From an uncultured Candidatus Saccharibacteria bacterium (GTDB lineage: Bacteria; Patescibacteriota; Minisyncoccia; Phycocordibacterales; UBA918): a stretch of 64,000 nt of DNA. The position numbers and the translations under genes were made by a program. Shown here in pieces: positions 10,767 through 60,477 of the stretch. The notes under the pieces were generated by a model. It searched no databases and had not been told where the DNA came from. It saw only the letters and a list, made by a program, of their open reading frames with translations. Position 1 is the first letter of the stretch, and each line of letters begins with the position of its first letter. The stretch covers positions 47,782 to 111,781 of the forward strand of contig CAZVFY010000001.1 of NCBI GenBank assembly GCA_964626635.1, given 5' to 3'.

Positions 10767-12101
10767 TTACTGTGGTAAGTCTGCAATTGGTAGGTTACCA
10801 GGTGCAGTACTGCGTGTCGATGGGATCCGTCCTAGACCCGGGGTTAGTACACTGCGACCAGGGATATGCCATAGCGTCGCCAGCTCCTCGGCTGACATGA
10901 CTTTGGGCATATGGACAATTGATTGCTGGCCACTGCCGGGGTAGTACGATCGGCGCTTGAGCTGTTCAAGCTCTTCCTTTTTGCGATTAGATTGCTTGGC
11001 ACCACTAAAGTCTTCTAGCCACACGTTGTCAAATTCGGTACGCCAACGCACACCTACCCCGTTGCGGTTCAGTATATCGAACTGTCGAAACGCATTTAGC
11101 ATCGGCCCGATCATGTTGCCGTCGAACTGCATTTTGTCCATCGTGTAGTACATTGCGCGAATACCGGTTTCATACGCAACCTTGCCAAGGTTTCGTTCAA
11201 TGGCAGTAATGGTGTCTCGCTCGCCGCTGGTAAGGATCGGTCGGTTTTCGGTTTCCTCAAGGGCACCTTGTTTTTTCTCATCTCGCCCTAGCATCTTGTC
11301 GACGTACTCGCGGCCAGCTTCGTCCCAGGTGCCAGACGGGGTGCGATTGCCGTTGTTGAACTCGCGCTTGGCGTGCGGTGTGCAAATAATTTGTACGATT
11401 AAACGCTCGTGCGGTTTAGCGCGCCCGAGGTGCTCGATCAACGCTGCCATTGGTTCGAACTTCTCTTCTTCTTTGGGCATTCGATCGTGGCCAAAGTCGA
11501 CGTAGGTTTTGATAGGGAAAATTTGATCGTTCTTTTTTACAATATGAAAAGACATGAGGTCACGTTCGCTTGGGAGCCAGCGCAATTCAGCCGCGTAATC
11601 AACTGGTTCTTGTTCAATTTCAATTCCCGGATATTGCGAATACAACTGACTCTCGACGAGGTCTTTGATCTTTTGGTGGACATTAATATAAAAACGCACA
11701 TCGCCACCAATCGACACCAGCTCAAAACTAGCTGGTAATGGGTGCTTGCCGTCAATGTAGGCTTGCCAGAGATTATCGCTGCCATTGGCGGCAAACATTT
11801 GCGTAAAAACACTTTCCATGGCCTCGGGTGATTTGAACACCTCGTTTGGTAGCCGTACGCGCAGCGTTACTCGTGGGTTGTTATAGCGAAAGCGACCGTG
11901 CGTAAATTCCTGCCACCGATCAAAGGTAATTCGATATAAAAAAATGGGCAATACAATCGGTAGGATTATTAGCAGCAACGTTACCGCTGGCCAGATGTTA
12001 ATTGTCACCCGCTCAGAAACGACAAATAACACAAACGCAATGATGAAAAATGCGATTGGTAGTAGTAAAAAACCTAACAACTTTTTGAGTAGGTCACTCA
12101 C
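10767..12101 (-). CDS. Conserved hypothetical membrane protein (2 N-terminal TM helices + ~370-aa soluble domain)
   Basis: 444 aa with no family recognised by eye. Distinctive C-terminal motif AEELATLWHIPG. Confidence 0.5.
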   Translation of the reverse strand: MSDLLKKLLGFLLLPIAFFIIAFVLFVVSERVTINIWPAVTLLLIILPIVLPIFLYRITFDRWQEFTHGRFRYNNPRVTLRVRLPNEVFKSPEAMESVFTQMFAANGSDNLWQAYIDGKHPLPASFELVSIGGDVRFYINVHQKIKDLVESQLYSQYPGIEIEQEPVDYAAELRWLPSERDLMSFHIVKKNDQIFPIKTYVDFGHDRMPKEEEKFEPMAALIEHLGRAKPHERLIVQIICTPHAKREFNNGNRTPSGTWDEAGREYVDKMLGRDEKKQGALEETENRPILTSGERDTITAIERNLGKVAYETGIRAMYYTMDKMQFDGNMIGPMLNAFRQFDILNRNGVGVRWRTEFDNVWLEDFSGAKQSNRKKEELEQLKRRSYYPGSGQQSIVHMPKVMSAEELATLWHIPGRSVLTPGLGRIPSTRSTAPGNLPIADLPQ

Positions 12102-12199: not shown

Positions 12200-13225
12200 T
12201 TACTCAGCCAATGTGTAGGTACCGTTACTGAGTCGTTTGAACAAATTAGAATCTTGCAAATTTACTACGATAGTGTTGTCTTTGACATAGCGTTCGCGAC
12301 GGACACGGTCGATGATCTCTTCGCGTGATAGTGGACCTTCAGCGTCCAGAATGTCACGTAGGACCTCTTTGACGACGCCGGCAGTGTACCCCCACTCGGA
12401 CAAAGCGTACAGTCCGCGCCCCACGAGGACAAACCGATCGTCTTTAATCAACTCGTTGTGAGTAGTCGCGATGTGTGCTTTGTGTTCAAATAGTTCGTTG
12501 ATCGCTTTGGCAACCTCACGAAAGTGCATTGGTGATCCGTGACGCTTGACCGCGAGGTACGCGTAGTCCCGGATACCTTTGACGCGGATATTTGGACTTT
12601 CGGCGTGTCCCCAGTCCCCTAGCGGGTTTTGGTTAATTTGCTTTGAAATTTTGAGCCAGCGGCGCAAGACTTCTTCGGTGTGTTCTTCGGAAAGTTCAGC
12701 CAGTTCAGTTTTAAAACGATTGATAATATCTTGCTCGGTCACCAGATCATCACGCTTGAGGCTTTTGCGAACTTGGCGTAAGGCTTTTTCGACGCTGTCC
12801 GCTACTTTTTCTTGAGTGTACCAACGATGTGCATAGTACGGGTTCTCTTTACTGCGGTAGAACGTGTCCCCCACCACCAGGAGGAAGTACAGGTGATTAC
12901 GCACCTTTGGGTCTGTTGTCAGTTCGTCGAGTAGGACGTGTTCGGCGACCACCCCACCACCGAGTTGATCGATGAGCTTTTGTAATTCCAAAAATAGCTC
13001 GTAGTGCTTTTTATACACATCAGACTTTTGGACTGACTGGATACCGTAATTTTCGATCTGACGTACCCGTTCACGCGTGATGCCGTAGGACTGGCCAATG
13101 GCTTCGAGGGTGAAAGTTTCACCATCTTTGTTAAGGCCATAGCGCTTTTCGAGGACGTCGCGGGCGCGTTCTGGCAAAGCATCGAGTAATGCCTTGGTGA
13201 TTTGTTGTGGTTTAAATGAAATCAT
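12200..13225 (-). CDS. Sigma-70 region-4-like HTH fused to a HARE-HTH domain (putative DNA-binding regulator)
   Basis: The likely real start is M17 (MISFKPQQ) at 13225. The listed ORF extends to 13273 through a hairpin. LPERARDVLEKRYGL...TLEAIGQSYGITRERVRQIE is a sigma-70 r4 signature. C-terminal SPMHFREVAKAINE...DDRFVLVGRGLYALSEW matches the HARE-HTH pattern. Confidence 0.55.
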   Translation of the reverse strand: MISFKPQQITKALLDALPERARDVLEKRYGLNKDGETFTLEAIGQSYGITRERVRQIENYGIQSVQKSDVYKKHYELFLELQKLIDQLGGGVVAEHVLLDELTTDPKVRNHLYFLLVVGDTFYRSKENPYYAHRWYTQEKVADSVEKALRQVRKSLKRDDLVTEQDIINRFKTELAELSEEHTEEVLRRWLKISKQINQNPLGDWGHAESPNIRVKGIRDYAYLAVKRHGSPMHFREVAKAINELFEHKAHIATTHNELIKDDRFVLVGRGLYALSEWGYTAGVVKEVLRDILDAEGPLSREEIIDRVRRERYVKDNTIVVNLQDSNLFKRLSNGTYTLAE

Positions 13226-13338
13226 AGGTGGTGATTGAATGTTTGTGTGTGCGCAGCAAAACTTGCTGCGCACTTCAATGCGTGTTGTTATTTATAACAT
13301 ATTGGCAGAATATGGTCAACAACTCGCGATTGCCATCG

Positions 13339-16155
13339 TTACTGCACGATATTGAGGATCCGACCTGGCACATAGATCAACTTGCGATGCGGCTGTGGGG
13401 GTAATTTATTTGCAAGCGGCTTATCAGCCAAGGCTGCCGCTAGCGCCTCAGCCTCACTAGCGTTCGGCGCAATGGTGATGTTACCACGAACTTTGCCATT
13501 AACCTGCACGCCGATAGTGACCTGCTGGTCTTTGGCTAAATCAGCGTCATACGTCGGGAACGCGACTGTGTGCACACTTCCCTCACCATTTGTCTCACTC
13601 CACAGTTCTTCGGTAATGTGCGGCGCAAACGGCGCGAGGAGGCGTAAGAACGCCATATAACTATCATTGGTGAGACCAGTTTTCTCAACGGTATTGATGT
13701 AGATCATCATCGTGCTGATGGCCGTGTTAAACTTGAATGTTTCGATATCACCGCTTACTTTCTTGATAGTTTTGTGAAGTGCGCTGGTGGCGTCGTTCGG
13801 CTCATTGTCGGCAATGTGCTCTGATAGGCCATACACACGCTCGAGGAACCTTCGTGCTCCGACCAACCCATCCTGACTCCAGGCGATGGTGTTCTCGAAC
13901 GGGCCCATGAACATCTCGTACACACGCATGGTGTCAGCCCCGACAAGCGCGACGATATCGTCTGGATTGATGACATTCCCCCAGCGCTTAGACATCTTGC
14001 GTCCATTCTCTGCCAAAATAAAGCCAAGGAACTCGAGGCGTTTGAATGGTTCTGTCGTACTAACGACGCCGATATCGTAAAGGAACTTGTGCCAGAACCG
14101 CGCGTAGATCAGGTGACGCACCGCGTGGTCACCGCCGACATACACATCGACCGGAAGCCAATCTTTTTCTTTTGCGGGGTCAATAAGCTGCGCGGTATTG
14201 CCAGGGTCGACGTATCGCAAGTAGTACCAACTACTCCCCGCCCATTGCGGCATGGTGTTGGTTTCGCGCGTGGCACTGACCAGTTCTTTACCGGCCGGTG
14301 CTTCATCTGTCACCATAAAGTCACCATCATCGGTCAGGTAGCCGGTGACATTGACCCAGTCGTCGATGTTCGCTAGTGGCGAACGACCGTCACCAGCGGG
14401 CGCGTAATGCTCGACGTCTGGCAGAGTGACTGGTAACTGAGACTCGGCCACCGGTACGGCAGTACCGTCCGCGAGGTGCACTATCGGGAACGGCTCACCC
14501 CAGTAGCGTTGGCGCGAGAATACCCAGTCTTTGATTTTGTACGTAGAGGTCATGCGCCCCCCGACTTTTTTGGTGATGGCAACTTTGGCTTCCTCGGTAG
14601 ACATACCGTCAAACTCATTTGAATTCATTAGTTCTCCAACTCCAGTATTTACACCCGCCAGTGCTAAAGCAATGGTGCTTTGTAAAAATTCCGATGCTTT
14701 TTCTGCTTTAAGATCTGCAGCTGATGCTGCTTGGATAATTCCCGCACCCTCGCATAGAGTAAGTGAACTAGGATCAATATCTTCCACAACAAAAATCGCT
14801 ACAAATTTGCCGTCTTTTCGCTGATGAAATTTTAATAACCTGTGGGAAGAATGATGTTTGGTCAAATCAAGCATTAGTTCTTCTTTCGTCTCTCGGACAA
14901 CTGTCTGCCATACAGTCTCTCCCACTTCCATACCGCCACCAAAAACAGCAACTCCGCCCGGGTTTGATGGGGCATGTAAATCGCGCCTTTGGTAAAGAAA
15001 ATGTCCATCTGTAGTTTTTAAAATTAGTCCTGATGCATCAACACCGTCTGGAGCAGCGGGTACTACAACTTGCTTCACCTCGATTCCAAATTGCTTCGCA
15101 AACGCATAATCACGCTCGTCGTGCGCTGGTACTGCCATGATCGCGCCGGTGCCGTAGCTCGCGAGGACGTAGTCAGCGATGTACACCGGAATGGTTTCGT
15201 CGCTGGCTGGATTAGTTGCCGTGACGCCCTCTAATTTTATCCCGGTCTTTTCCTTGGTGTCGTCGAGGCGATCCATTTCTTTTTTGTTGGCTACATCCTC
15301 TATGTACGCCGCGACCTCATCCCAGTTCTCGATGGTGTTTTTGTGTTGCTGCACCAGCGTGTGCTCGGGCGTCAGTACCATGTACGTTGCACCGTATAGT
15401 GTGTCTGGGCGCGTTGTAAATACTGTGACCTGGTCACCAGTAGAAAGCGTGAAATCTATTTCCGCCCCTTCACTTTTCCCTATCCAATTACGCTGCGCTT
15501 CTTTGATATGTTCTGGCCAGTCGAGCGTGTCAAGGTCAGACAGAAGTCGATCGGCGTACCCACGAATACGCAGGGTCCACTGTCGCATCGGCCTTTTCTC
15601 GACCACGCTATCGCAGCGCTCGCAGGTACCATCGGCCTCGAGGTCTTCATTCGCGAGGCCGGTTTGACAACCCGGGCACCAGTTGATGGGTTCGTGACTC
15701 TCGAACGCGAGGCCTTTTTTGAATAACTGGATGAAAATCCACTGCGTCCATTTGTAGAACGCTGGGTCGGTGGTGTTGATCTCTCGTGACCAATCGTAGT
15801 CGAACCCAAGCTTCTCGAGCTGACTCTTAAAATTCTCGACGTTCTGGTCGACGGCTGCGCGCGGGTGGACTTTATTTTTGATCGCGTAGTTCTCGGCTGG
15901 TAAGCCAAAGGCGTCCCAACCCATTGGGTGGAGCACTTCGTGTCCGGTCATACGCATGAAGCGGCTGTAAATATCGGTGGCGATGTAACCTTTTGGATGT
16001 CCGACATGTAGCCCTTCCCCGGACGGGTACGGGAACATATCGAGGACAAAACATTTTGGCTTTTCAGAACTACTATCAGTCTGGTAGATCTTGGATTCTT
16101 TCCATGCTTGTTGCCATTTCTTTTCTATAGCAGCATGATCAAAGCGTTTATTCAT
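13339..16155 (-). CDS. leuS: Leucine--tRNA ligase carrying a Nudix-box insertion downstream of the CP1 editing domain
   Basis: 938 aa. HIGH (HVGHPKGY) and KMSKS (KMSKRWGN) motifs. Editing-domain TRPDTLYGATYMVLTPEH and GTGAIMAVPAHDERDYAFA. Extra segment at residues ~365-507 contains FGGGMEVGETVWQTVVRETKEELML. Confidence 0.95.
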   Translation of the reverse strand: MNKRFDHAAIEKKWQQAWKESKIYQTDSSSEKPKCFVLDMFPYPSGEGLHVGHPKGYIATDIYSRFMRMTGHEVLHPMGWDAFGLPAENYAIKNKVHPRAAVDQNVENFKSQLEKLGFDYDWSREINTTDPAFYKWTQWIFIQLFKKGLAFESHEPINWCPGCQTGLANEDLEADGTCERCDSVVEKRPMRQWTLRIRGYADRLLSDLDTLDWPEHIKEAQRNWIGKSEGAEIDFTLSTGDQVTVFTTRPDTLYGATYMVLTPEHTLVQQHKNTIENWDEVAAYIEDVANKKEMDRLDDTKEKTGIKLEGVTATNPASDETIPVYIADYVLASYGTGAIMAVPAHDERDYAFAKQFGIEVKQVVVPAAPDGVDASGLILKTTDGHFLYQRRDLHAPSNPGGVAVFGGGMEVGETVWQTVVRETKEELMLDLTKHHSSHRLLKFHQRKDGKFVAIFVVEDIDPSSLTLCEGAGIIQAASAADLKAEKASEFLQSTIALALAGVNTGVGELMNSNEFDGMSTEEAKVAITKKVGGRMTSTYKIKDWVFSRQRYWGEPFPIVHLADGTAVPVAESQLPVTLPDVEHYAPAGDGRSPLANIDDWVNVTGYLTDDGDFMVTDEAPAGKELVSATRETNTMPQWAGSSWYYLRYVDPGNTAQLIDPAKEKDWLPVDVYVGGDHAVRHLIYARFWHKFLYDIGVVSTTEPFKRLEFLGFILAENGRKMSKRWGNVINPDDIVALVGADTMRVYEMFMGPFENTIAWSQDGLVGARRFLERVYGLSEHIADNEPNDATSALHKTIKKVSGDIETFKFNTAISTMMIYINTVEKTGLTNDSYMAFLRLLAPFAPHITEELWSETNGEGSVHTVAFPTYDADLAKDQQVTIGVQVNGKVRGNITIAPNASEAEALAAALADKPLANKLPPQPHRKLIYVPGRILNIVQ

Positions 16156-16182: not shown

Positions 16183-16566
16183 TTAGTCTATTAGTTTTGG
16201 TACAAACAGGTGTAAGTGGTAGTGGCCGGGAATAGACTTGTGTTTGGGAAGTGCTTCAGCTACAAACCCGTAATGTTCATTAAGATGCGTTGTTTTAATC
16301 TCGTACAATTCGCTTACTTCTTCATCCGAAAGTGCCGTTTCAATTTTGTGAGCCTTTGGCAGGATCATGTGGTGCACACTGGTAACTGCATCGTAGGGAT
16401 ATTTATTATCAATAATGCGCCAATACGTAAACTCATGCAGACTGGGTGCGCTACACAGTGGGCAGGTGTCAGTTTTTAGGTCAGCTTGACGGTCATTATG
16501 GTATTGCTGATGGGTGGCTTCTGTGCGCCAAGAGCGCGGTTGTAGGGTTTTGCTCAGGTTAGACAT
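16183..16566 (-). CDS. HIT-family (histidine triad) nucleotide hydrolase
   Basis: 127 aa. N-terminal zinc motif CPLC, HHMILPKAH, and the histidine triad GHYHLHLFVPK. It is co-directional with leuS and 27 nt upstream of it. Confidence 0.75.
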   Translation of the reverse strand: MSNLSKTLQPRSWRTEATHQQYHNDRQADLKTDTCPLCSAPSLHEFTYWRIIDNKYPYDAVTSVHHMILPKAHKIETALSDEEVSELYEIKTTHLNEHYGFVAEALPKHKSIPGHYHLHLFVPKLID

Positions 16567-28207: not shown

Positions 28208-28280
28208 TGGACCGTACAGGATTTGAACCTGCGACCTCTGCCATGCCATGGCAGCGCTCTACCAGCTGAGCTAACGGCCC
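28208..28280 (-). tRNA. tRNA-Ala (anticodon GGC)
   Basis: The reverse complement folds as a cloverleaf: acceptor GGGCCGT with G3:U70, anticodon loop AT-GGC-AT, T-arm GGTTCAAATCC. Confidence 0.85.
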
Positions 28281-28327
28281 AATAGATAGCAAAATAACGC
28301 AAAAATCGCCAATCGGAAATTTTGTGT

Positions 28328-28403
28328 TGGTGGACTCGACAGGACTTGAACCCGCTACCTCCTCAGTGCAAATGAGGCGCTCTACCAGATGAGCTACGAG
28401 CCC
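28328..28403 (-). tRNA. tRNA-Ala (anticodon UGC), CCA encoded
   Basis: RC: GGGCTCGTAGCTCATCTGGTAGAGCGCCTCATTTGCACTGAGGAGGTAGCGGGTTCAAGTCCTGTCGAGTCCACCA. G3:U70 present. Anticodon loop TT-TGC-AC. Confidence 0.85.
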
Positions 28404-34824: not shown

Positions 34825-37116
34825 TTATACATGCCCTAAAGATTCGTCTCGGTGTGGACTGTTTAATTTTAGACTTAATCCCAGAAGTAATAGCAACACT
34901 CCAATAGCCAAAAGCGAAACTCCTAGCACAGTCGTGACACTGCTGGTATCGTCCTGAGAAGTGAGTAGCACTGGTTCTGATACAGTAACTGGGGTTTCGA
35001 CAACGGTGAAAGCTTCAGCCTCCTTTACAAATCGGAAGGGATCAGTCTGAGCAAGAATGGCGCCGGTGTTATCAGTAAGTGCTACAAACACTTGATGTTC
35101 ACCATCTTCTAGTTCTCGTTCAAAGGTATACTCAAAAACGCCTGTTGCGTTCGTTCGCACGGTTACAATAGTCGGCGTGCTAAAGAGATACAGTGTGACA
35201 AAACTGTTTGGCAGTGCCCTACCTCGTACTGTGGTTTTAATAGTTGGTTCATCAGCCACCGCGCTCACGTCAATTAAGGGTGTCACCGAATCAATTTTTA
35301 ATTCTGGAATACGAGGTACCCCAATGGTAGTTTTAGGTGATTCGTATACAATCGCTGCTTCTGCAGATGCATCGGTGGGATTAAATCCGCGAATAATTTC
35401 TGCCCCATCAGTAAAGCCGTCGTTATCGGTGTCAACCAAAGTGGGGTCGGTATTGAATAGCGTCACTTCATCAACATCGCTAACGCCATCGCCATCTGTG
35501 TCAACGGCCGAATCAGATTCGCTACGCTCTCGACGCACGTCCTCAAAAGCAATGACCGATGCTTGCATAGTTTCTAACGCCGCCTGTAATTCTCGAGCTA
35601 TGTCATCAGCGATGAACCACTGTTCGTCATTGGCCAGCAACTCGCGCAAAATTACGCTTTGATACTGAGATATATTTGTCTCGGCGGCCGCTATTAAAAC
35701 CGGGTCATTAGATTGTACGGCGATAGACAGTTGAGTAAATAATTGATCCAATTCTGCTTGGTCGGCCAAAATTCTATCGGCCACAATGGCTTTTATTGAA
35801 TCAGTGGTTGAGGTACCAGTTTCAAAATCTTGATATAAATCAGCATTGAGCTCTCTCGTGATGGTGAGCAAACGACCGGTTTCCAGTGCTGCGCTTTCGG
35901 CCGGTGTTATGTTGTCAATTGTAACTAATTCTGAATTGGATTCATCAATTGCTCCATCAGCAGAACTGCGAGCATACAACTCGTAGGAGCCATTGGGTAG
36001 TTGAGCACTGTTGAACACAAAAGAACCGGCTCGCGGTGGCGAAGCAACCGAACCGATTAGTTGTGAACCTGTTGATTGAGCTGATCGTGCAAAAAATTGT
36101 ATATTATCAGCTTGGTTTTGGGTTGTGTATTGAAAAGATACAGAGTTTGTGATGTTTCTTGGTGCAGTGATGGTTACTACATTAGTTGCTGCGCTCAGCG
36201 CTTGCTGTTCAACCATGAACCTGGCTTGTTCAGAGGTAACAACATCGTTGCTCTCCCCTTCTATTCTCACAGCTTGGTCATCAATTGGTACCGCAAATGA
36301 GGCGAGCTGGTAAGTGTCGACATTACCGATACGGTCACGAATGTTGACAGCGACTTGATACATCGCTGGGTCCAACTCAGAAACTGGTATAGTCGTAGCA
36401 AATTTATCGTTTCCAAGCGGGTTAACTGACAGATCAATATTCTGACTTACACCACGTTCGTTCTGAAAGAGTAAAGTAGCATTGACACTATCAGTATTGG
36501 GGGCAGAAAATGTGAGTGTTTCAGTGGCACCTAGGGTGCCTGACAAGCCATCAATAATTTTGACATGACGACTAGGTATAGAAGCCTTTACTGCAACAGT
36601 GCTAGCTTGAGACACTAAGGCTGGCTGACAATCTGTAGTGCAACCGGCCTCATAGACTATAGATTGATAAAGTATTCCGGCACTCACTAACGTAAATATG
36701 ATGGCACCAATAACACTGCTAGCAATAGCGCTACGATACAAGTACTCGTCTGCGTGCTCATAAAGGAGCACCACCTTATCTTTGAGTCTTAGCGGGACAT
36801 TGGTTGGGAGTTCGACCACAGCTGAGTGTGCTGGTGATGCTGTTTGATTTATTTTATGCGTTCGTCTACGGTTAGGGCTCTGTGGTGATTTAGCGCTAAC
36901 AGTAGCGCGCTTTCGCGTGGTTGCTTTTTGTTTTGGGGCTGTTGCAGCGACACTCTTAGAGATTGTAGAACGGGTGATTTTTCGGGCGGTGGAGCGTGGC
37001 TTAGCGGTACGTGCGGTCGTAGCGACACCCTTCGGAGCTGCTACTTTTTTAGTTTTTGTGACCGGAGCTTTTTTACTGGTCGTCTTTTTCTTGGGTTCTT
37101 GGGGAGTCAGCGCCAT
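34825..37116 (-). CDS. Large bitopic surface protein: Lys/Ala/Thr-rich histone-H1-like cytoplasmic tail, TM, extracellular domain with thrombospondin-type-3-like Ca-binding repeats, C-terminal TM
   Basis: 763 aa. KKKTTSKKAPVTKTKKVAAPKG... N-terminus, TM VIGAIIFTLVSAGILY, DTDGDGVSDVDEV...DTDNDGFTDGAE repeats, C-terminal LLAIGVLLLLLGLSL. Confidence 0.5.
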   Translation of the reverse strand: MALTPQEPKKKTTSKKAPVTKTKKVAAPKGVATTARTAKPRSTARKITRSTISKSVAATAPKQKATTRKRATVSAKSPQSPNRRRTHKINQTASPAHSAVVELPTNVPLRLKDKVVLLYEHADEYLYRSAIASSVIGAIIFTLVSAGILYQSIVYEAGCTTDCQPALVSQASTVAVKASIPSRHVKIIDGLSGTLGATETLTFSAPNTDSVNATLLFQNERGVSQNIDLSVNPLGNDKFATTIPVSELDPAMYQVAVNIRDRIGNVDTYQLASFAVPIDDQAVRIEGESNDVVTSEQARFMVEQQALSAATNVVTITAPRNITNSVSFQYTTQNQADNIQFFARSAQSTGSQLIGSVASPPRAGSFVFNSAQLPNGSYELYARSSADGAIDESNSELVTIDNITPAESAALETGRLLTITRELNADLYQDFETGTSTTDSIKAIVADRILADQAELDQLFTQLSIAVQSNDPVLIAAAETNISQYQSVILRELLANDEQWFIADDIARELQAALETMQASVIAFEDVRRERSESDSAVDTDGDGVSDVDEVTLFNTDPTLVDTDNDGFTDGAEIIRGFNPTDASAEAAIVYESPKTTIGVPRIPELKIDSVTPLIDVSAVADEPTIKTTVRGRALPNSFVTLYLFSTPTIVTVRTNATGVFEYTFERELEDGEHQVFVALTDNTGAILAQTDPFRFVKEAEAFTVVETPVTVSEPVLLTSQDDTSSVTTVLGVSLLAIGVLLLLLGLSLKLNSPHRDESLGHV

Positions 37117-37165
37117 AATATTTAGTATACTCAGTTTGATACCTATAATTGGACCCTGTACACAA

Positions 37166-37708
37166 CTACTGCTTTGTGACCTGGTGAATGATGTTGACTA
37201 ACTCTTCAAGATCAGTGAGAGCCTTAACGTAAAATCCAGCTGCACCCATGGCAGCCGCTTGGGCGCGAGTTTCTGCATTGTCTTTATTAGAAAAAACAAT
37301 TACCGGCGCTGCAATATTAATGGCTTTAAGAGTAGACCACACATCAAATCCACTAGTACCGGGCAGCATCAAATCTAGTAGCACGACGTGAGGAGTATGT
37401 GCTTGTGCTAACTCTACTGCGTCAGAGCCATCAGTTGAGATGTAAAATTCTATTTTAGAACGCTCTAGCTTTGTTGCTAGTAAATTCTGTAATAGCGGAT
37501 CATCTTCAATGACTAACACCCTAATGCCAGCAACACTGGCTGCTTTCGAAGGGTGAAGTGCTGATTCTAGGTCCTTTAAGGCCGCTTGCGATGTGGTGTC
37601 TGTGTCTGCGCCCAGATCTGTGTCTGCTAATGACAATGTGCGATCAACTACCTTCGAACCAGTTGCGCCAAATCCGTCATTTGTGTTCTCTTTAAATTCA
37701 CCATTCAT
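37166..37708 (-). CDS. Response-regulator receiver (REC-only) protein
   Basis: 180 aa. IRVLVIEDDPLL, phospho-acceptor context VVLLDLMLPGTSG, conserved K in IVFSNKD. Low-complexity N-terminal extension and no output domain. Confidence 0.75.
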   Translation of the reverse strand: MNGEFKENTNDGFGATGSKVVDRTLSLADTDLGADTDTTSQAALKDLESALHPSKAASVAGIRVLVIEDDPLLQNLLATKLERSKIEFYISTDGSDAVELAQAHTPHVVLLDLMLPGTSGFDVWSTLKAINIAAPVIVFSNKDNAETRAQAAAMGAAGFYVKALTDLEELVNIIHQVTKQ

Positions 37709-42203: not shown

Positions 42204-42656
42204 TTACCAGCTTTGCAGTGATTCTGAGTAAGTAACTGCTTGATTATCCGTATTAAAAAAGCCGATTTCATATTGATACATGTAGTACATCAGTCCTGCC
42301 GCCGCTACAGTAAATGCGCCCACGATAACAAAAATGTACTGGGCTATTACCATATGGTTCCAATTTGTTTCTGGCTCAGCAAAACTTGTTGACTCTACAT
42401 TAATATGTAGCAGTTCAGCAATTTCATGGGGTTGTAGTGTTTCACTGCTAGAAAATATTTTATGCATCCCATCAGCGCGTACTTCTTTGGTGATATTATT
42501 TTCGCGGAGTACGGTCAAGGCTGTGTCTACTTCATCCTGATTAAATCTCGCACTAATTAGCACTGACTTGATATGTTCGTCAGGCGCTGTTTGATCAAGT
42601 CCGTTGATTTTAAGAATGGTTTCGATTTGTTGGCGCGAGATCATAGCTAGAGTCAT
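42204..42656 (-). CDS. Hypothetical protein with C-terminal TM helix
   Basis: 150 aa. Soluble N-terminal domain, then IAQYIFVIVGAFTVAAAGLMYYMY. Confidence 0.4.
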   Translation of the reverse strand: MTLAMISRQQIETILKINGLDQTAPDEHIKSVLISARFNQDEVDTALTVLRENNITKEVRADGMHKIFSSSETLQPHEIAELLHINVESTSFAEPETNWNHMVIAQYIFVIVGAFTVAAAGLMYYMYQYEIGFFNTDNQAVTYSESLQSW

Positions 42657-59352: not shown

Positions 59353-60477
59353 TTAGAACACAGGGGTGGCAACGTATGTCAATGTTGCCGTGTAGTCATC
59401 AGCAGCTTCTTGAAGCGGACTGATGTTTACTTGATAGAACACGTTAGTAACACCTGCTTCACCGCTACCATCAGTCGGTCCAGTGTGTCGCATGACCTCG
59501 ACTGGCGTGGTAGATGCAGCTACAAAACTTTCTCCACTGTTGAAATCCAATGTTGTAGTGGTGTCAGTTGAGGTAAGACCCCAGTGACCCCATTGGTTTT
59601 CATCTGTGGTTGAACCGCCTGGATCAGACCAACTTTGTGGGGTGCTCACATAAGTACCGTCAGCAAAACTGTCAATATCTGCACCATTGGCTGATGTCAA
59701 CTGCTGGTCAGTAGCTACAGTCACTACAAATCCATTAGCGGCATTAGTTTCGACTGTCAGACTTTGCGCACCGCTTACATCAGTTTCTGGTGCTAGTTCA
59801 CCAAACGGAATTGAAGTTGGTGTTGTAACTACTGTGGTGGTTGGTGAATCGGCAGTTTTCGTGTCAATTCCTAGCCCACCAATTTCGAAGTTGAAGATTG
59901 TATCGACAGTAGCTGTGACGACAACGCGATCAACGATCGAGACTCTGGTCTCACCACTGTCGTCACTACCAGCAGTTAGGTTGATTGCATACGAGCCAGC
60001 GGCTGGGTTCGTAATCTGGTTGGTGCCAGTGCTACCGTCAGTAGCATTGGTACCAACCTCAATTGTTACCTCTGTACCCGTAGCAACTGCAGCTGTACCG
60101 TTAGTGAAGGTCAGGACTTGACCACTGACGCCAAAGCCCCAGGTTGTACCAGAAGGACTAGCTGCAACTGTGGCATCGGTACCATCAAGAGCAACGTCAA
60201 CATCTGCTGGCACAATACTACCTATATCACTAAATCCAGCTGGATACGTAAGTGTGATAGCTTCACCCGCAGCAAGCTCTGATGGCAGTGTAAAGGCAAG
60301 TGTTTGATTTGATCCTACACTTGGCGCACTGTCCGACAGAGTATTGCTAAATTCTGTGACATTTGCGGCTGCTGCAAACCGCATTGTTGGGAACCCGAGT
60401 GACCATAGAATGATCGAGATCGAGGCCACCGCAGCAATAGCTTGGAGTACTGTGAACGTGTATGACGTCCTAGACAT
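59353..60477 (-). CDS. Secreted Thr/Gly/Ser-rich protein (possible major surface subunit)
   Basis: 374 aa. Signal peptide (AAVASISIILWSLGFPTMRFAAAA). No TM anchor. Own terminator and a 270-nt upstream intergenic region. Confidence 0.45.
   Translation of the reverse strand: MSRTSYTFTVLQAIAAVASISIILWSLGFPTMRFAAAANVTEFSNTLSDSAPSVGSNQTLAFTLPSELAAGEAITLTYPAGFSDIGSIVPADVDVALDGTDATVAASPSGTTWGFGVSGQVLTFTNGTAAVATGTEVTIEVGTNATDGSTGTNQITNPAAGSYAINLTAGSDDSGETRVSIVDRVVVTATVDTIFNFEIGGLGIDTKTADSPTTTVVTTPTSIPFGELAPETDVSGAQSLTVETNAANGFVVTVATDQQLTSANGADIDSFADGTYVSTPQSWSDPGGSTTDENQWGHWGLTSTDTTTTLDFNSGESFVAASTTPVEVMRHTGPTDGSGEAGVTNVFYQVNISPLQEAADDYTATLTYVATPVF

What the first reader, a model, noticed from the sequence alone, without database searches (positions are those of the whole stretch)
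14637..15063. Nudix-hydrolase box inserted inside leucyl-tRNA synthetase
LeuS residues ~365-507 form an extra ~140-aa segment between the end of the CP1 editing domain (...AFAKQFGIEVKQVV) and the conserved return to the core (GELMNSNEFDGMSTEEAK...KIKDWVFSRQRYWG).

E. coli LeuS has only ~18 residues at this position. The insert contains FGGGMEVGETVWQTVVRETKEELML. That is a near-perfect Nudix box (G-x5-E-x7-R-E-U-x-E-E-x-G-U; compare PGGGVEPGETPEEALVRELKEELGL).

The insert is also visibly more AT-rich in its codons (ttaaaaactacagatggacatttt...) than the flanking leuS sequence, which suggests a late acquisition.

Nudix enzymes hydrolyse nucleoside-diphosphate-X compounds, including Ap4A and other adenylated by-products of aminoacyl-tRNA synthetases. 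A Nudix module built into a synthetase could give in-cis clearance of mis-made adenylates or dinucleoside polyphosphates. It could alternatively sense nucleotide second messengers.

I do not know of a described Nudix-bearing LeuRS.
Basis: partly seen in the sequence, partly recalled or inferred. Interest (0 to 1): 0.8.

Follow-up and report, generated by a model that had tools for sequence, protein, structure and literature searches.

The report
Swappable Nudix domain inside leucyl-tRNA synthetase
A complete, apparently active Nudix hydrolase domain sits in a surface loop of the editing domain of this CPR bacterium's leucyl-tRNA synthetase, and it is one of many interchangeable cassettes that related bacteria swap in and out of the same loop by recombination, a pattern I could not find described in the literature.

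Summary

It is not a one-off. Of the 121 nearest LeuRS clusters, 77 carry a 140-168 aa Nudix insert in this loop. Of the 150 best library matches to the insert profile, 103 are LeuRS, some with two or three Nudix domains. The catalytic residues E422, E425 and E426 are invariant (76/76).

The cassettes fall into about ten or more types that are unrelated to LeuRS phylogeny. LeuRS bodies 92-99% identical carry different cassettes, or none. The window's copy has GC3 0.27 against 0.61 for the rest of the gene.

Relatives carry other cargo in their LeuRS, either in this loop or at other sites: Ham1/ITPase, an alpha/beta hydrolase and a nucleotidyltransferase-like domain.

Best reading: an autonomous house-cleaning pyrophosphohydrolase carried as exchangeable cargo in a permissive LeuRS loop. 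In-cis Ap4A clearance is possible but not favoured. The substrate is unknown. No paper describing this was found.

The parts
13339..16155 (-). leuS, bacterial-type leucyl-tRNA synthetase, 938 aa, host of the insert
   Evidence: ORF. TIGR00396 scores 943 bits against a cut-off of 548. PDB LeuRS hits reach E 8e-193.
14527..15492 (-). CP1 editing domain (aa ~222-543), interrupted by the Nudix cassette
   Evidence: Pfam PF13603 scores 200.5 bits in 2 stretches, and aa 222-369 match profile positions 1-145 of 185. The alignment to T. thermophilus LeuRS resumes at aa 507 = Tth 381. The outer boundaries are approximate.
14638..15060 (-). Nudix cassette (aa 366-506) nested in a CP1 loop
14869..14937 (-). 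Nudix box GGMEVGETVWQTVVRETKEELML (aa 407-429), with the metal-binding residues E422, E425 and E426
   Evidence: Regex match. G407, E422, E425 and E426 are invariant in 76/76 homologous cassettes. R421 is kept in 59/76 and E413 in 58/76.
15400..15420 (-). Threonine-rich editing motif FTTRPDT (aa 246-252), intact
   Evidence: Read from the translation. F246, T247, T248, R249, D251 and T252 are invariant in 87 relatives. Its role in editing is established knowledge of LeuRS.
15109..15153 (-). Editing-site motif GTGAIMAVPAHDERD (aa 335-349), intact, about 16 residues upstream of the cassette
   Evidence: Read from the translation. The motif is invariant in the alignment. It was one of the two peptide patterns the genome scan chose as conserved anchors.
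15997..16008 (-). HIGH-type signature HVGH (aa 50-53) of the synthetic site
   Evidence: Read from the translation. Invariant.
13984..13998 (-). KMSKS-type signature KMSKR (aa 720-724)
   Evidence: Read from the translation. Invariant.

Best explanation
Residues 366-506 are a complete, catalytically competent MutT-type Nudix pyrophosphohydrolase domain. It is nested in frame in a permissive surface loop of the LeuRS CP1 editing domain, between the strand ...IEVKQVV and the strand GELMNS.

It is one of about ten or more mutually unrelated Nudix cassette types that Paceibacteria/Kaiserbacteria-type CPR bacteria carry in this same loop. The cassettes are gained, lost and replaced by homologous recombination through the very conserved flanking LeuRS sequence. 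The copy in this window is a compositionally foreign import.

The domain most likely works autonomously. It would be a Mg2+-dependent hydrolase of a nucleoside di-, tri- or polyphosphate derivative: a house-cleaning NTP pyrophosphatase, or a hydrolase of NpnN-type compounds. LeuRS would serve only as a constitutively expressed, essential scaffold, and the cassette would not take part in aminoacylation or editing.

Shown here: domain identity, fold, conservation of the catalytic residues, nesting inside CP1, distribution, cassette replacement, presence/absence polymorphism and the compositional anomaly.

Inferred: enzymatic activity, substrate class, autonomy from LeuRS, and recombination as the exchange mechanism.
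For: Domain identity:
- Pfam and fold evidence.
- In the full-length AF2 model (pLDDT 86.1) the insert keeps the same secondary-structure elements as when folded alone.

Catalytic competence:
- G407, E422, E425 and E426 are invariant in 76/76 cassettes, although cassettes of different types share only about 10-25% identity.
- Within a type, cassettes are 45-77% identical while LeuRS bodies are 74-80% identical. That indicates purifying selection.

Prevalence:
- 77 of the 121 nearest LeuRS clusters carry a Nudix cassette in this loop.
- 103 of the 150 best matches among 1.84 billion representatives are LeuRS.

Autonomy and exchange:
- Cassette identity is uncorrelated with body identity (Spearman 0.04).
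- P0081 and P0078 have bodies about 98% identical and cassettes 20% identical.
- At DNA level their flanks are 95.9% and 97.9% identical, and the middle ~506 nt gives no blastn match. The two come from independent samples.
- P0042 (with cassette) and P0050 (46-aa loop) have bodies 99.2% identical.
- In relatives without Nudix the loop is hypervariable, 9-112 aa.

Foreign composition in this window:
- GC3 0.27 against 0.61, the lowest of 1313 sliding windows.

Cargo logic:
- The same loop holds an aminoglycoside-2''-adenylyltransferase-like domain in L014.
- Other sites in relatives' LeuRS hold Ham1/ITPase (L067, P0195) and Ser_hydrolase (L053, L009, P0138).

House-cleaning type:
- The best profile matches are the NTP pyrophosphatases NudI, MutT and the CTP pyrophosphohydrolase (E ~1e-13; NCBIfam).
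Against: - No enzymatic data exist, and no cassette reaches the cut-off of any curated Nudix subfamily. The substrate class is a guess.
- This Nudix clade is tightly associated with LeuRS: 103 of the top 150 matches, up to three copies per protein, always in or next to CP1. That is more than a random scaffold would predict and leaves room for a functional link.
- I could not obtain model coordinates. The position of the Nudix active site relative to the editing pocket, the synthetic site and the tRNA path is therefore unknown.
- Low GC3 also appears in the cassettes of other lineages (and 10 of 12 loci). Part of the compositional signal may be a general property of the cassettes rather than a mark of recent transfer.
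Confidence: 0.6

Rival explanations
1. In-cis partner of the synthetase. The Nudix domain hydrolyses dinucleoside polyphosphates such as Ap4A, Ap3A or Np4N, or other adenylylated by-products that LeuRS makes from Leu-AMP plus ATP/NTP. It would clear them at source. Alternatively it acts on the bound tRNA, for example a 5' or 3' nucleotide modification.
For: - This Nudix clade is strongly enriched in LeuRS: 103 of the 150 best matches. Some LeuRS have 2-3 copies, and all copies lie within or flanking CP1.
- Aminoacyl-tRNA synthetases are the main cellular source of Ap4A (established knowledge).
- The catalytic residues are invariant.
Against: - LeuRS bodies 92-99% identical carry unrelated cassettes or none. 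There is no co-variation between cassette and body.
- Non-Nudix domains occupy the same loop in L014, and Ham1 or hydrolase domains occupy other LeuRS sites.
- 42 of the 121 closest LeuRS lack the cassette.
- Similarity to Ap4A hydrolases is no better than to MutT or NudI.
- Leu-AMP itself has no pyrophosphate bond for a Nudix enzyme to cleave.
Confidence: 0.2
2. Conflict or immunity module. The loop is a hot spot under diversifying or frequency-dependent selection. The different Nudix cassettes, and the other cargo, would neutralise different nucleotide-like toxins, adenylate-mimic LeuRS inhibitors, or phage- or host-derived nucleotide signals. That would explain why many unrelated types are kept and exchanged.
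For: - The polymorphism is extreme: about ten or more types, with replacement and presence/absence among near-identical genes.
- 21 of 27 cassettes match the PADLOC candidate-defence Nudix model PDC-S07, best E 5.7e-12.
- One alternative cargo resembles an aminoglycoside nucleotidyltransferase, a resistance-type enzyme (L014).
Against: - The PADLOC match is generic Nudix similarity.
- No defence genes were seen around leuS, and the synteny is housekeeping.
- Within types the cassettes evolve under ordinary purifying selection.
- Ham1 and MutT-like domains are classic house-cleaning enzymes.
- No relative of the window's cassette was found in viral contigs.
Confidence: 0.1
3. Non-catalytic module. 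The Nudix fold would serve only as a structural spacer, a nucleotide sensor or an RNA-binding surface that modulates CP1 movement or tRNA binding.
For: - Some Nudix-fold proteins are non-enzymatic regulators, for example NrtR (3gz5) and AraR (5bs6), which are among the structural neighbours.
- R421 and E413 vary in about a quarter of cassettes.
Against: - E422, E425 and E426 are invariant in 76/76 cassettes although the rest of the domain is highly divergent.
- The cassette is dispensable in relatives whose LeuRS is 99% identical.
Confidence: 0.05
4. Artefact: an assembly chimera or a mis-joined frame that creates an apparent fusion.
For: The compositional break coincides exactly with the insert.
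Against: - The identical 938-aa protein is on 4 contigs from 3 samples, one of them 210 kb.
- The insert is in frame, with intact LeuRS on both sides.
- The same architecture occurs in more than 100 independent 50%-identity clusters from JGI, ENA, NCBI and Logan.
Confidence: 0.02

Closest known systems
Free-standing MutT/NudI-type Nudix NTP pyrophosphohydrolases (e.g. PDB 3grn, 3oga/6dt3 NudI, 1mut MutT, 2rrk NudG)
   Same: - Same Nudix box with all the metal-binding glutamates.
- Best profile matches, at E ~1e-13.
   Different: - Here the domain is not a separate protein. It is nested in frame inside the editing domain of an aminoacyl-tRNA synthetase.
- No cassette reaches the curated cut-off of any of these families: MutT 22 bits against 97.9, NudI 20 bits against 95.
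Nudix-type Ap4A hydrolases and RppH (PDB 1ktg/1kt9, 5cfi, 3u53, 4s2y, 7sp3)
   Same: - Nudix fold, and among the top structural neighbours.
- Their substrates, Ap4A and Np4A caps, are made by aminoacyl-tRNA synthetases. That would give a rationale for a fusion.
   Different: - The sequence similarity is weaker than to NudI or MutT (E ~1e-9 against 1e-13).
- The evolutionary behaviour of the cassette, freely replaced or lost, does not fit an obligatory partnership with LeuRS.
Aminoacyl-tRNA synthetases with accreted enzyme domains (e.g. IleRS with a GNAT domain, NCBIfam NF040702) and bifunctional Nudix fusions (NadM-Nudix, PDB 2qjt/2qjo)
   Same: An unrelated small-molecule enzyme domain is joined to a housekeeping enzyme in one polypeptide. 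NF040702 appears in the hit list, and 2qjt/2qjo appear.
   Different: - As far as I know, those are terminal fusions with a fixed architecture.
- Here the domain is an internal insertion: Rossmann fold > CP1 > Nudix, three levels of nesting.
- The site is polymorphic and holds many unrelated cassettes.
Inteins and homing elements in conserved genes
   Same: - In-frame insert at a conserved site of an essential gene.
- Presence/absence polymorphism between near-identical hosts.
- Foreign composition and horizontal spread via conserved flanks.
   Different: - There is no Hint, intein or endonuclease domain.
- There are no splice-junction residues. The insert begins with VPAAP, and the loop ends with NTGVG directly before the conserved ELMNS strand.
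- The insert is an ordinary enzyme fold under purifying selection and is presumably retained in the mature protein.
Lineage-specific variation of LeuRS CP1 (e.g. CP1-less Mycoplasma mobile LeuRS, PDB 3ziu)
   Same: It shows that CP1 is an evolutionarily plastic module of LeuRS. 3ziu is a 637-aa LeuRS.
   Different: Known variation is loss or short idiosyncratic insertions. Insertion of whole foreign catalytic domains has not been described.

Membership tests
Nudix hydrolase superfamily (Pfam PF00293) | Significant match to the family HMM above its gathering score | tested here: met
   36.6 bits on the whole protein and 40.7 bits on the insert, against a cut-off of 21.1. The profile of 27 cassettes matches 192 PDB Nudix sequences.
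Nudix hydrolase superfamily (Pfam PF00293) | Nudix box GX5EX7REUXEEXGU with the metal-binding glutamates | tested here: met
   GGMEVGETVWQTVVRETKEELML at aa 407-429. G, E, R, E, E and E are all present. The deviations are U->T423 and G->M428. E422, E425 and E426 are invariant in 76/76 homologues.
Nudix hydrolase superfamily (Pfam PF00293) | Alpha/beta/alpha sandwich Nudix fold | tested here: met
   [not shown]
Nudix hydrolase superfamily (Pfam PF00293) | Divalent-cation-dependent hydrolysis of a nucleoside diphosphate linked to X | not testable with these tools
   Needs enzymology.
MutT 8-oxo-dGTPase (TIGR00586) / NudI (NF012016) / NudG (NF007834) | Score above the curated equivalog cut-off | tested here: not met
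   MutT scores 22.5 bits against 97.9, NudI 20.5 against 95, and NudG 17.6 against 156. None of the 27 cassettes comes near a cut-off.
Nudix-type Ap4A hydrolase | Closer similarity to Ap4A hydrolases than to other Nudix subfamilies. A subfamily-specific Tyr about 16-18 residues after the box is recalled from memory. | tested here: inconclusive
   [not shown]
Bacterial leucyl-tRNA synthetase (TIGR00396) | HMM score above the cut-off, HIGH and KMSKS signatures, and the CP1 editing motifs | tested here: met
   943 bits against 548. HVGH is at aa 50-53, KMSKR at 720-724, TTRPDT at 247-252 and GTGAIMAVPAHDERD at 335-349.
Bacterial leucyl-tRNA synthetase (TIGR00396) | Leucine-specific domain inserted before KMSKS (present in E. 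coli and T. thermophilus) | tested here: not met
   Query aa 716->721 aligns to T. thermophilus 580->638, so about 57 residues are missing. This is a lineage variation and does not exclude membership.
Intein / Hint-domain mobile insertion | Hint or intein domains and splice-junction residues (C/S at the start, HN + C/S/T at the end) | tested here: not met
   Pfam shows no Hint, intein or homing-endonuclease hit. The junction sequences are ...KQVV|VPAAP... and ...NTGVG|ELMNS....
Known anti-phage defence systems (PADLOC-DB) | Match to a defence protein model, with the system's partner genes nearby | tested here: inconclusive
   There is only a generic match to the candidate Nudix model PDC-S07: E 2e-4 for the window's cassette, best 5.7e-12. 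The neighbours are housekeeping genes.

The most novel reading that the evidence does not exclude
The CP1 loop of LeuRS in CPR bacteria is a dedicated docking site where a pool of unrelated nucleotide-metabolising domains (about ten or more Nudix types and a nucleotidyltransferase-like domain) is exchanged between strains under diversifying selection, while other LeuRS sites carry Ham1/ITPase or an alpha/beta hydrolase. The cassettes would act as an immunity or detoxification polymorphism, for example against adenylate-mimic LeuRS inhibitors, toxic nucleotides taken from the host, or phage nucleotide signals. That would make this a new kind of in-protein accessory locus, carried and spread by the conserved flanks of an essential gene.
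Probability: 0.12. Interest if true: 0.9.

Novelty: new variant of a known kind. Interest (0 to 1): 0.66.

Why it matters
Aminoacyl-tRNA synthetases are among the most conserved proteins known, and the bacterial LeuRS editing domain is a validated drug target.

This finding shows that a whole foreign enzyme domain can be nested inside CP1. Close relatives, with LeuRS up to 99% identical, replace it with an unrelated cassette or lack it altogether. That implies an unexpectedly permissive site in the enzyme. It also implies a route by which accessory functions spread horizontally inside an essential gene in small-genome CPR bacteria.

It offers a natural scaffold for domain-insertion engineering of LeuRS. 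It gives a marker for strain-level recombination in uncultivated Patescibacteria. If the Nudix activity turns out to act on Ap4A or Np4N, it would be a direct physical link between a synthetase and alarmone turnover.

It also warns annotators that 'LeuRS' of 920-1330 aa in these lineages hides one to four extra enzymes.

Tried and rejected
- Searching the 5.8-billion-protein index with the insert alone or with the insert profile found essentially nothing. The full-length query found dozens of Nudix-bearing LeuRS, so this is a word-index limitation and not evidence of rarity.
- The genome scan with the cassette-only alignment failed because no stretch was conserved enough.
- Scans of metagenome and viral contigs with the window's own cassette found no relative. 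The donor remains unsampled.
- HIT-family idea for the 127-aa ORF upstream of leuS (motif GHYHLHLF): there is only a sub-threshold DUF3605 hit and nothing in PDB or NCBIfam, and the ORF is not conserved next to other Nudix-LeuRS genes. Dropped.
- Intein or homing element: no supporting domains or junction residues.
- Assembly chimera: rejected.
- Subfamily assignment (MutT, NudI, RppH, Ap4A hydrolase, CoA pyrophosphatase): no cut-off was reached and the structural neighbours do not discriminate.
- A simple vertical 'one ancient insertion' model was rejected. Cassette-bearing and cassette-free LeuRS interleave in the body tree, and cassette identity is uncorrelated with body identity.
- The AFDB Foldseek library was not available.
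- Model coordinates could not be read, so the geometry of the Nudix site relative to the LeuRS pockets was not measured.
Full report
**1. The observation**

The gene is a bacterial-type leuS on the minus strand, window 13339-16155, 938 aa. It scores 943 bits on TIGR00396, whose cut-off is 548. Residues 365-507 correspond exactly to the reported coordinates 14637-15063.

Pfam NUDIX (PF00293) matches at 36.6 bits on the whole protein and 40.7 bits (E 3e-10) on the excised segment. The gathering score is 21.1. The box GGMEVGETVWQTVVRETKEELML (aa 407-429) keeps every catalytic position of GX5EX7REUXEEXGU. It is the only such match in any frame of the 64-kb window.

Folded on its own with an alignment of 27 homologous cassettes, the segment gives a confident model (pLDDT 90.6, pTM 0.84).
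- All 50 best Foldseek PDB neighbours are Nudix enzymes.
- In the full-length model (pLDDT 86.1) the insert keeps the same secondary-structure elements.

Alignment to solved LeuRS structures shows 17 residues in T. thermophilus (363-381) and 9 in E. coli where this protein has about 140.

The identical protein is encoded on four contigs from three JGI samples, one of them 210 kb. An assembly chimera is therefore excluded.

**2. A correction on position**

The insert is not between CP1 and the core. It is inside the CP1 editing domain.
- The Pfam editing-domain profile is interrupted at position 145 of 185.
- It runs straight through in a relative without an insert here (L053).
- T. thermophilus residues 363-381 lie within its editing domain, which spans about 224-417 (established knowledge).

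The nesting therefore has three levels: Rossmann fold > CP1 > Nudix.

The editing motifs (TTRPDT, GTGAIMAVPAHDERD) and the HIGH and KMSKS-type signatures are intact. LeuRS itself looks functional.

**3. It is a family, not a one-off**

Among the 121 closest 90%-identity LeuRS clusters:
- 77 carry a 140-168 aa insert here that is annotated PF00293;
- 42 have only 9-46 aa;
- 2 have about 80 aa.

The few source names say Candidatus Kaiserbacteria or Paceibacteria.

A profile of the cassettes was searched with HMMER against 1.84 billion representatives. It gives 3063 hits at E<=1e-10. Of the best 150, 103 are LeuRS or LeuRS fragments.

Several of these LeuRS have two or three Nudix domains. The extra ones sit at a second site near the start of CP1, about aa 242 in window numbering.

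A truncated scan of one-genome-per-species contigs found 13 species with a large insert at this loop.
- Twelve carry a Nudix box by eye or regex. PF00293 was confirmed in the four of them that I scanned: L005, L008, L009 and L067.
- They are labelled Patescibacteria, Saccharibacteria and Magasanikbacteria, but also Clostridia, Bacilli, Mycoplasmatota and Gammaproteobacteria.
- I did not verify those labels.

**4. Catalytic residues are conserved**

Across 76 cassettes, G407, E422, E425 and E426 are invariant. R421, E413 and G412 are kept in 58-60 of the 76. Between cassette types the rest of the domain shares only about 10-25% identity.

Within a type, cassettes are 45-77% identical where LeuRS bodies are 74-80% identical. 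That is ordinary purifying selection on a working enzyme.

**5. The cassettes are exchanged**

Cassette identity is uncorrelated with LeuRS-body identity (Spearman 0.04 over 2850 pairs). Clustering gives at least ten types. Mean body identity within a type (0.74-0.80) equals the overall mean of 0.77. Cassette-bearing and cassette-free LeuRS interleave in a tree of the body.

Near-identical bodies carry unrelated cassettes:

| Pair | Body identity | Cassette identity |
|---|---|---|
| P0081 / P0078 | 98% | 20% |
| P0034 / P0025 | 93% | 20% |
| P0074 / P0044 | 92% | 10% |

At DNA level, the P0081 and P0078 genes come from two independent samples. They are 95.9% identical over nt 1-1088 and 97.9% identical from nt 1595 into the next gene. 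The ~506 nt in between gives no blastn match at all.

P0042 (with cassette) and P0050 (a 46-aa loop) have bodies 99.2% identical.

In Nudix-free relatives the loop is hypervariable, 9-112 aa.

The simplest mechanism is homologous recombination through the extremely conserved flanks. The genome scan itself chose YGTGAIMA and TYK[IL][KR]DWV as the conserved anchors. This mechanism is inferred, not shown.

**6. Composition**

- GC3 is 0.266 in the cassette and 0.614 in the rest of leuS.
- The trough is confined to aa ~355-515.
- The 45 genes of the window have mean GC3 0.52 (sd 0.07, minimum 0.37).
- The cassette is the lowest of 1313 sliding 143-codon windows.

Together with section 5, this supports import of this particular cassette from a lower-GC donor. 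The window's cassette is a singleton type, at best 34% identical to any other. No relative was found in metagenome or viral contig scans, so the donor is unsampled.

One caveat applies. Cassettes in other lineages also tend to have somewhat lower GC3 than their hosts. Part of the signal may therefore be a property of the cassette pool.

**7. Other cargo**

| LeuRS | Extra domain(s) |
|---|---|
| L014 | Same loop holds an aminoglycoside-2''-adenylyltransferase-like domain (PF10706, 28.7 bits against cut-off 21) |
| L053 | Ser_hydrolase alpha/beta-hydrolase at the second site, no Nudix |
| L009 | Nudix plus Ser_hydrolase |
| L067 | Ham1-like domain plus Nudix |
| P0195 | Nudix plus a full Ham1/ITPase domain (197 bits) |
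| P0138, P0048 | Nudix plus hydrolase |

A related Nudix also sits inside an M17 aminopeptidase-GNAT protein (P0169).

Ham1/ITPase and MutT-type Nudix enzymes are the two classic house-cleaning NTP pyrophosphatases (established knowledge).

**8. Most likely function**

I conclude that the segment is an autonomous, active Nudix pyrophosphohydrolase carried as exchangeable cargo in a permissive CP1 loop.

The best sequence matches are NTP pyrophosphatases: NudI, MutT and the CTP pyrophosphohydrolase at E ~1e-13. Ap4A hydrolases score ~1e-9. No cassette reaches any curated subfamily cut-off. Structural neighbours do not discriminate. The substrate is therefore open.

The clade's strong bias toward LeuRS and toward CP1 is noteworthy. 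But interchangeability, dispensability and non-Nudix cargo argue against a co-adapted partnership. Leu-AMP also lacks the pyrophosphate bond that Nudix enzymes cleave.

A conflict or immunity reading, with diversifying selection on cassettes, is a minority possibility. The only PADLOC match is a generic candidate Nudix model.

**9. Novelty**

Six full-text searches found no paper describing a Nudix-bearing LeuRS or cassette exchange in an aminoacyl-tRNA synthetase. The combinations searched were LeuRS or leucyl-tRNA synthetase or tRNA synthetase with Nudix, Ap4A, CPR, Patescibacteria or Parcubacteria. Databases do hold such proteins, silently annotated as leucine--tRNA ligase.

Domain accretion in synthetases and Nudix fusions are known kinds of event. 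New here are the internal nesting in CP1, the diversity of cassettes and their recombinational turnover. I file it as a new variant of a known kind, of moderate to high interest.

**10. Limits**

- There are no enzymatic data.
- The genome scan was truncated.
- MAG taxonomic labels were not verified.
- Metagenome co-assembly could in principle create some mosaic genes. However, the same cassette types recur across many independent assemblies and sources.

Noticed in passing
window 13984-14010 (aa ~716-724 of LeuRS): This LeuRS lacks the leucine-specific domain that precedes KMSKS in E. coli and T. thermophilus. Query aa 716->721 aligns to T. thermophilus 580->638, so about 57 residues are missing.
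   Followed up: partly
window 16183-16566 (-): A 127-aa ORF lies 28 bp upstream of leuS on the same strand and has a His-x-His-x-His motif (GHYHLHLF) reminiscent of HIT proteins. It has only a sub-threshold DUF3605 Pfam hit and nothing in PDB or NCBIfam. It is not conserved next to other Nudix-LeuRS genes.
   Followed up: yes
L014:1972-4866 (aa ~399-479 of that LeuRS): In a GTDB species representative labelled Gammaproteobacteria, the same CP1 loop holds an aminoglycoside-2''-adenylyltransferase-like nucleotidyltransferase domain instead of Nudix (PF10706, 28.7 bits).
   Followed up: partly
P0195 (1330 aa), L067:1270-4872, L053:1447-4419, L009:2008-5430: LeuRS relatives carry further inserted enzymes. 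A complete Ham1/ITPase domain lies between the catalytic and anticodon-binding domains in P0195. A Ham1-like or Ser_hydrolase domain sits at a second CP1 site (about aa 242 in window numbering) in L067 and L053. An alpha/beta hydrolase sits in the catalytic core in L009. There are up to three Nudix domains in P0131, P0132 and P0139.
   Followed up: partly
P0169 (1318 aa): An M17 leucyl-aminopeptidase-family protein with two GNAT domains also contains a Nudix domain of the same clade. That suggests the cassettes are not restricted to LeuRS.
   Followed up: no
window 12200-13273, 10767-12101 (-); L084, L085: The gene order leuS, Sigma70_r4/HARE-HTH protein, DUF8128 protein, YceG is conserved between the window and relatives that carry different cassettes.
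   Followed up: no
window 34828-37708, 42207-42656, 59356-60477 (-): Four genes have GC3 of 0.37-0.375 against a window mean of 0.52. They may be other horizontally acquired segments.
   Followed up: no
window 28208-28403 (-): Two adjacent tRNA genes are the only Rfam matches in the window. There is no rRNA, so the organism could only be placed through protein similarity, as a Paceibacteria/Kaiserbacteria-like CPR bacterium.
   Followed up: no
tool behaviour (versus 10): The word-indexed protein search returned no LeuRS when queried with the cassette alone or its profile, although the cassette-bearing LeuRS clusters are in that database. A negative result from that tool with a sub-domain query should not be read as absence.
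   Followed up: yes
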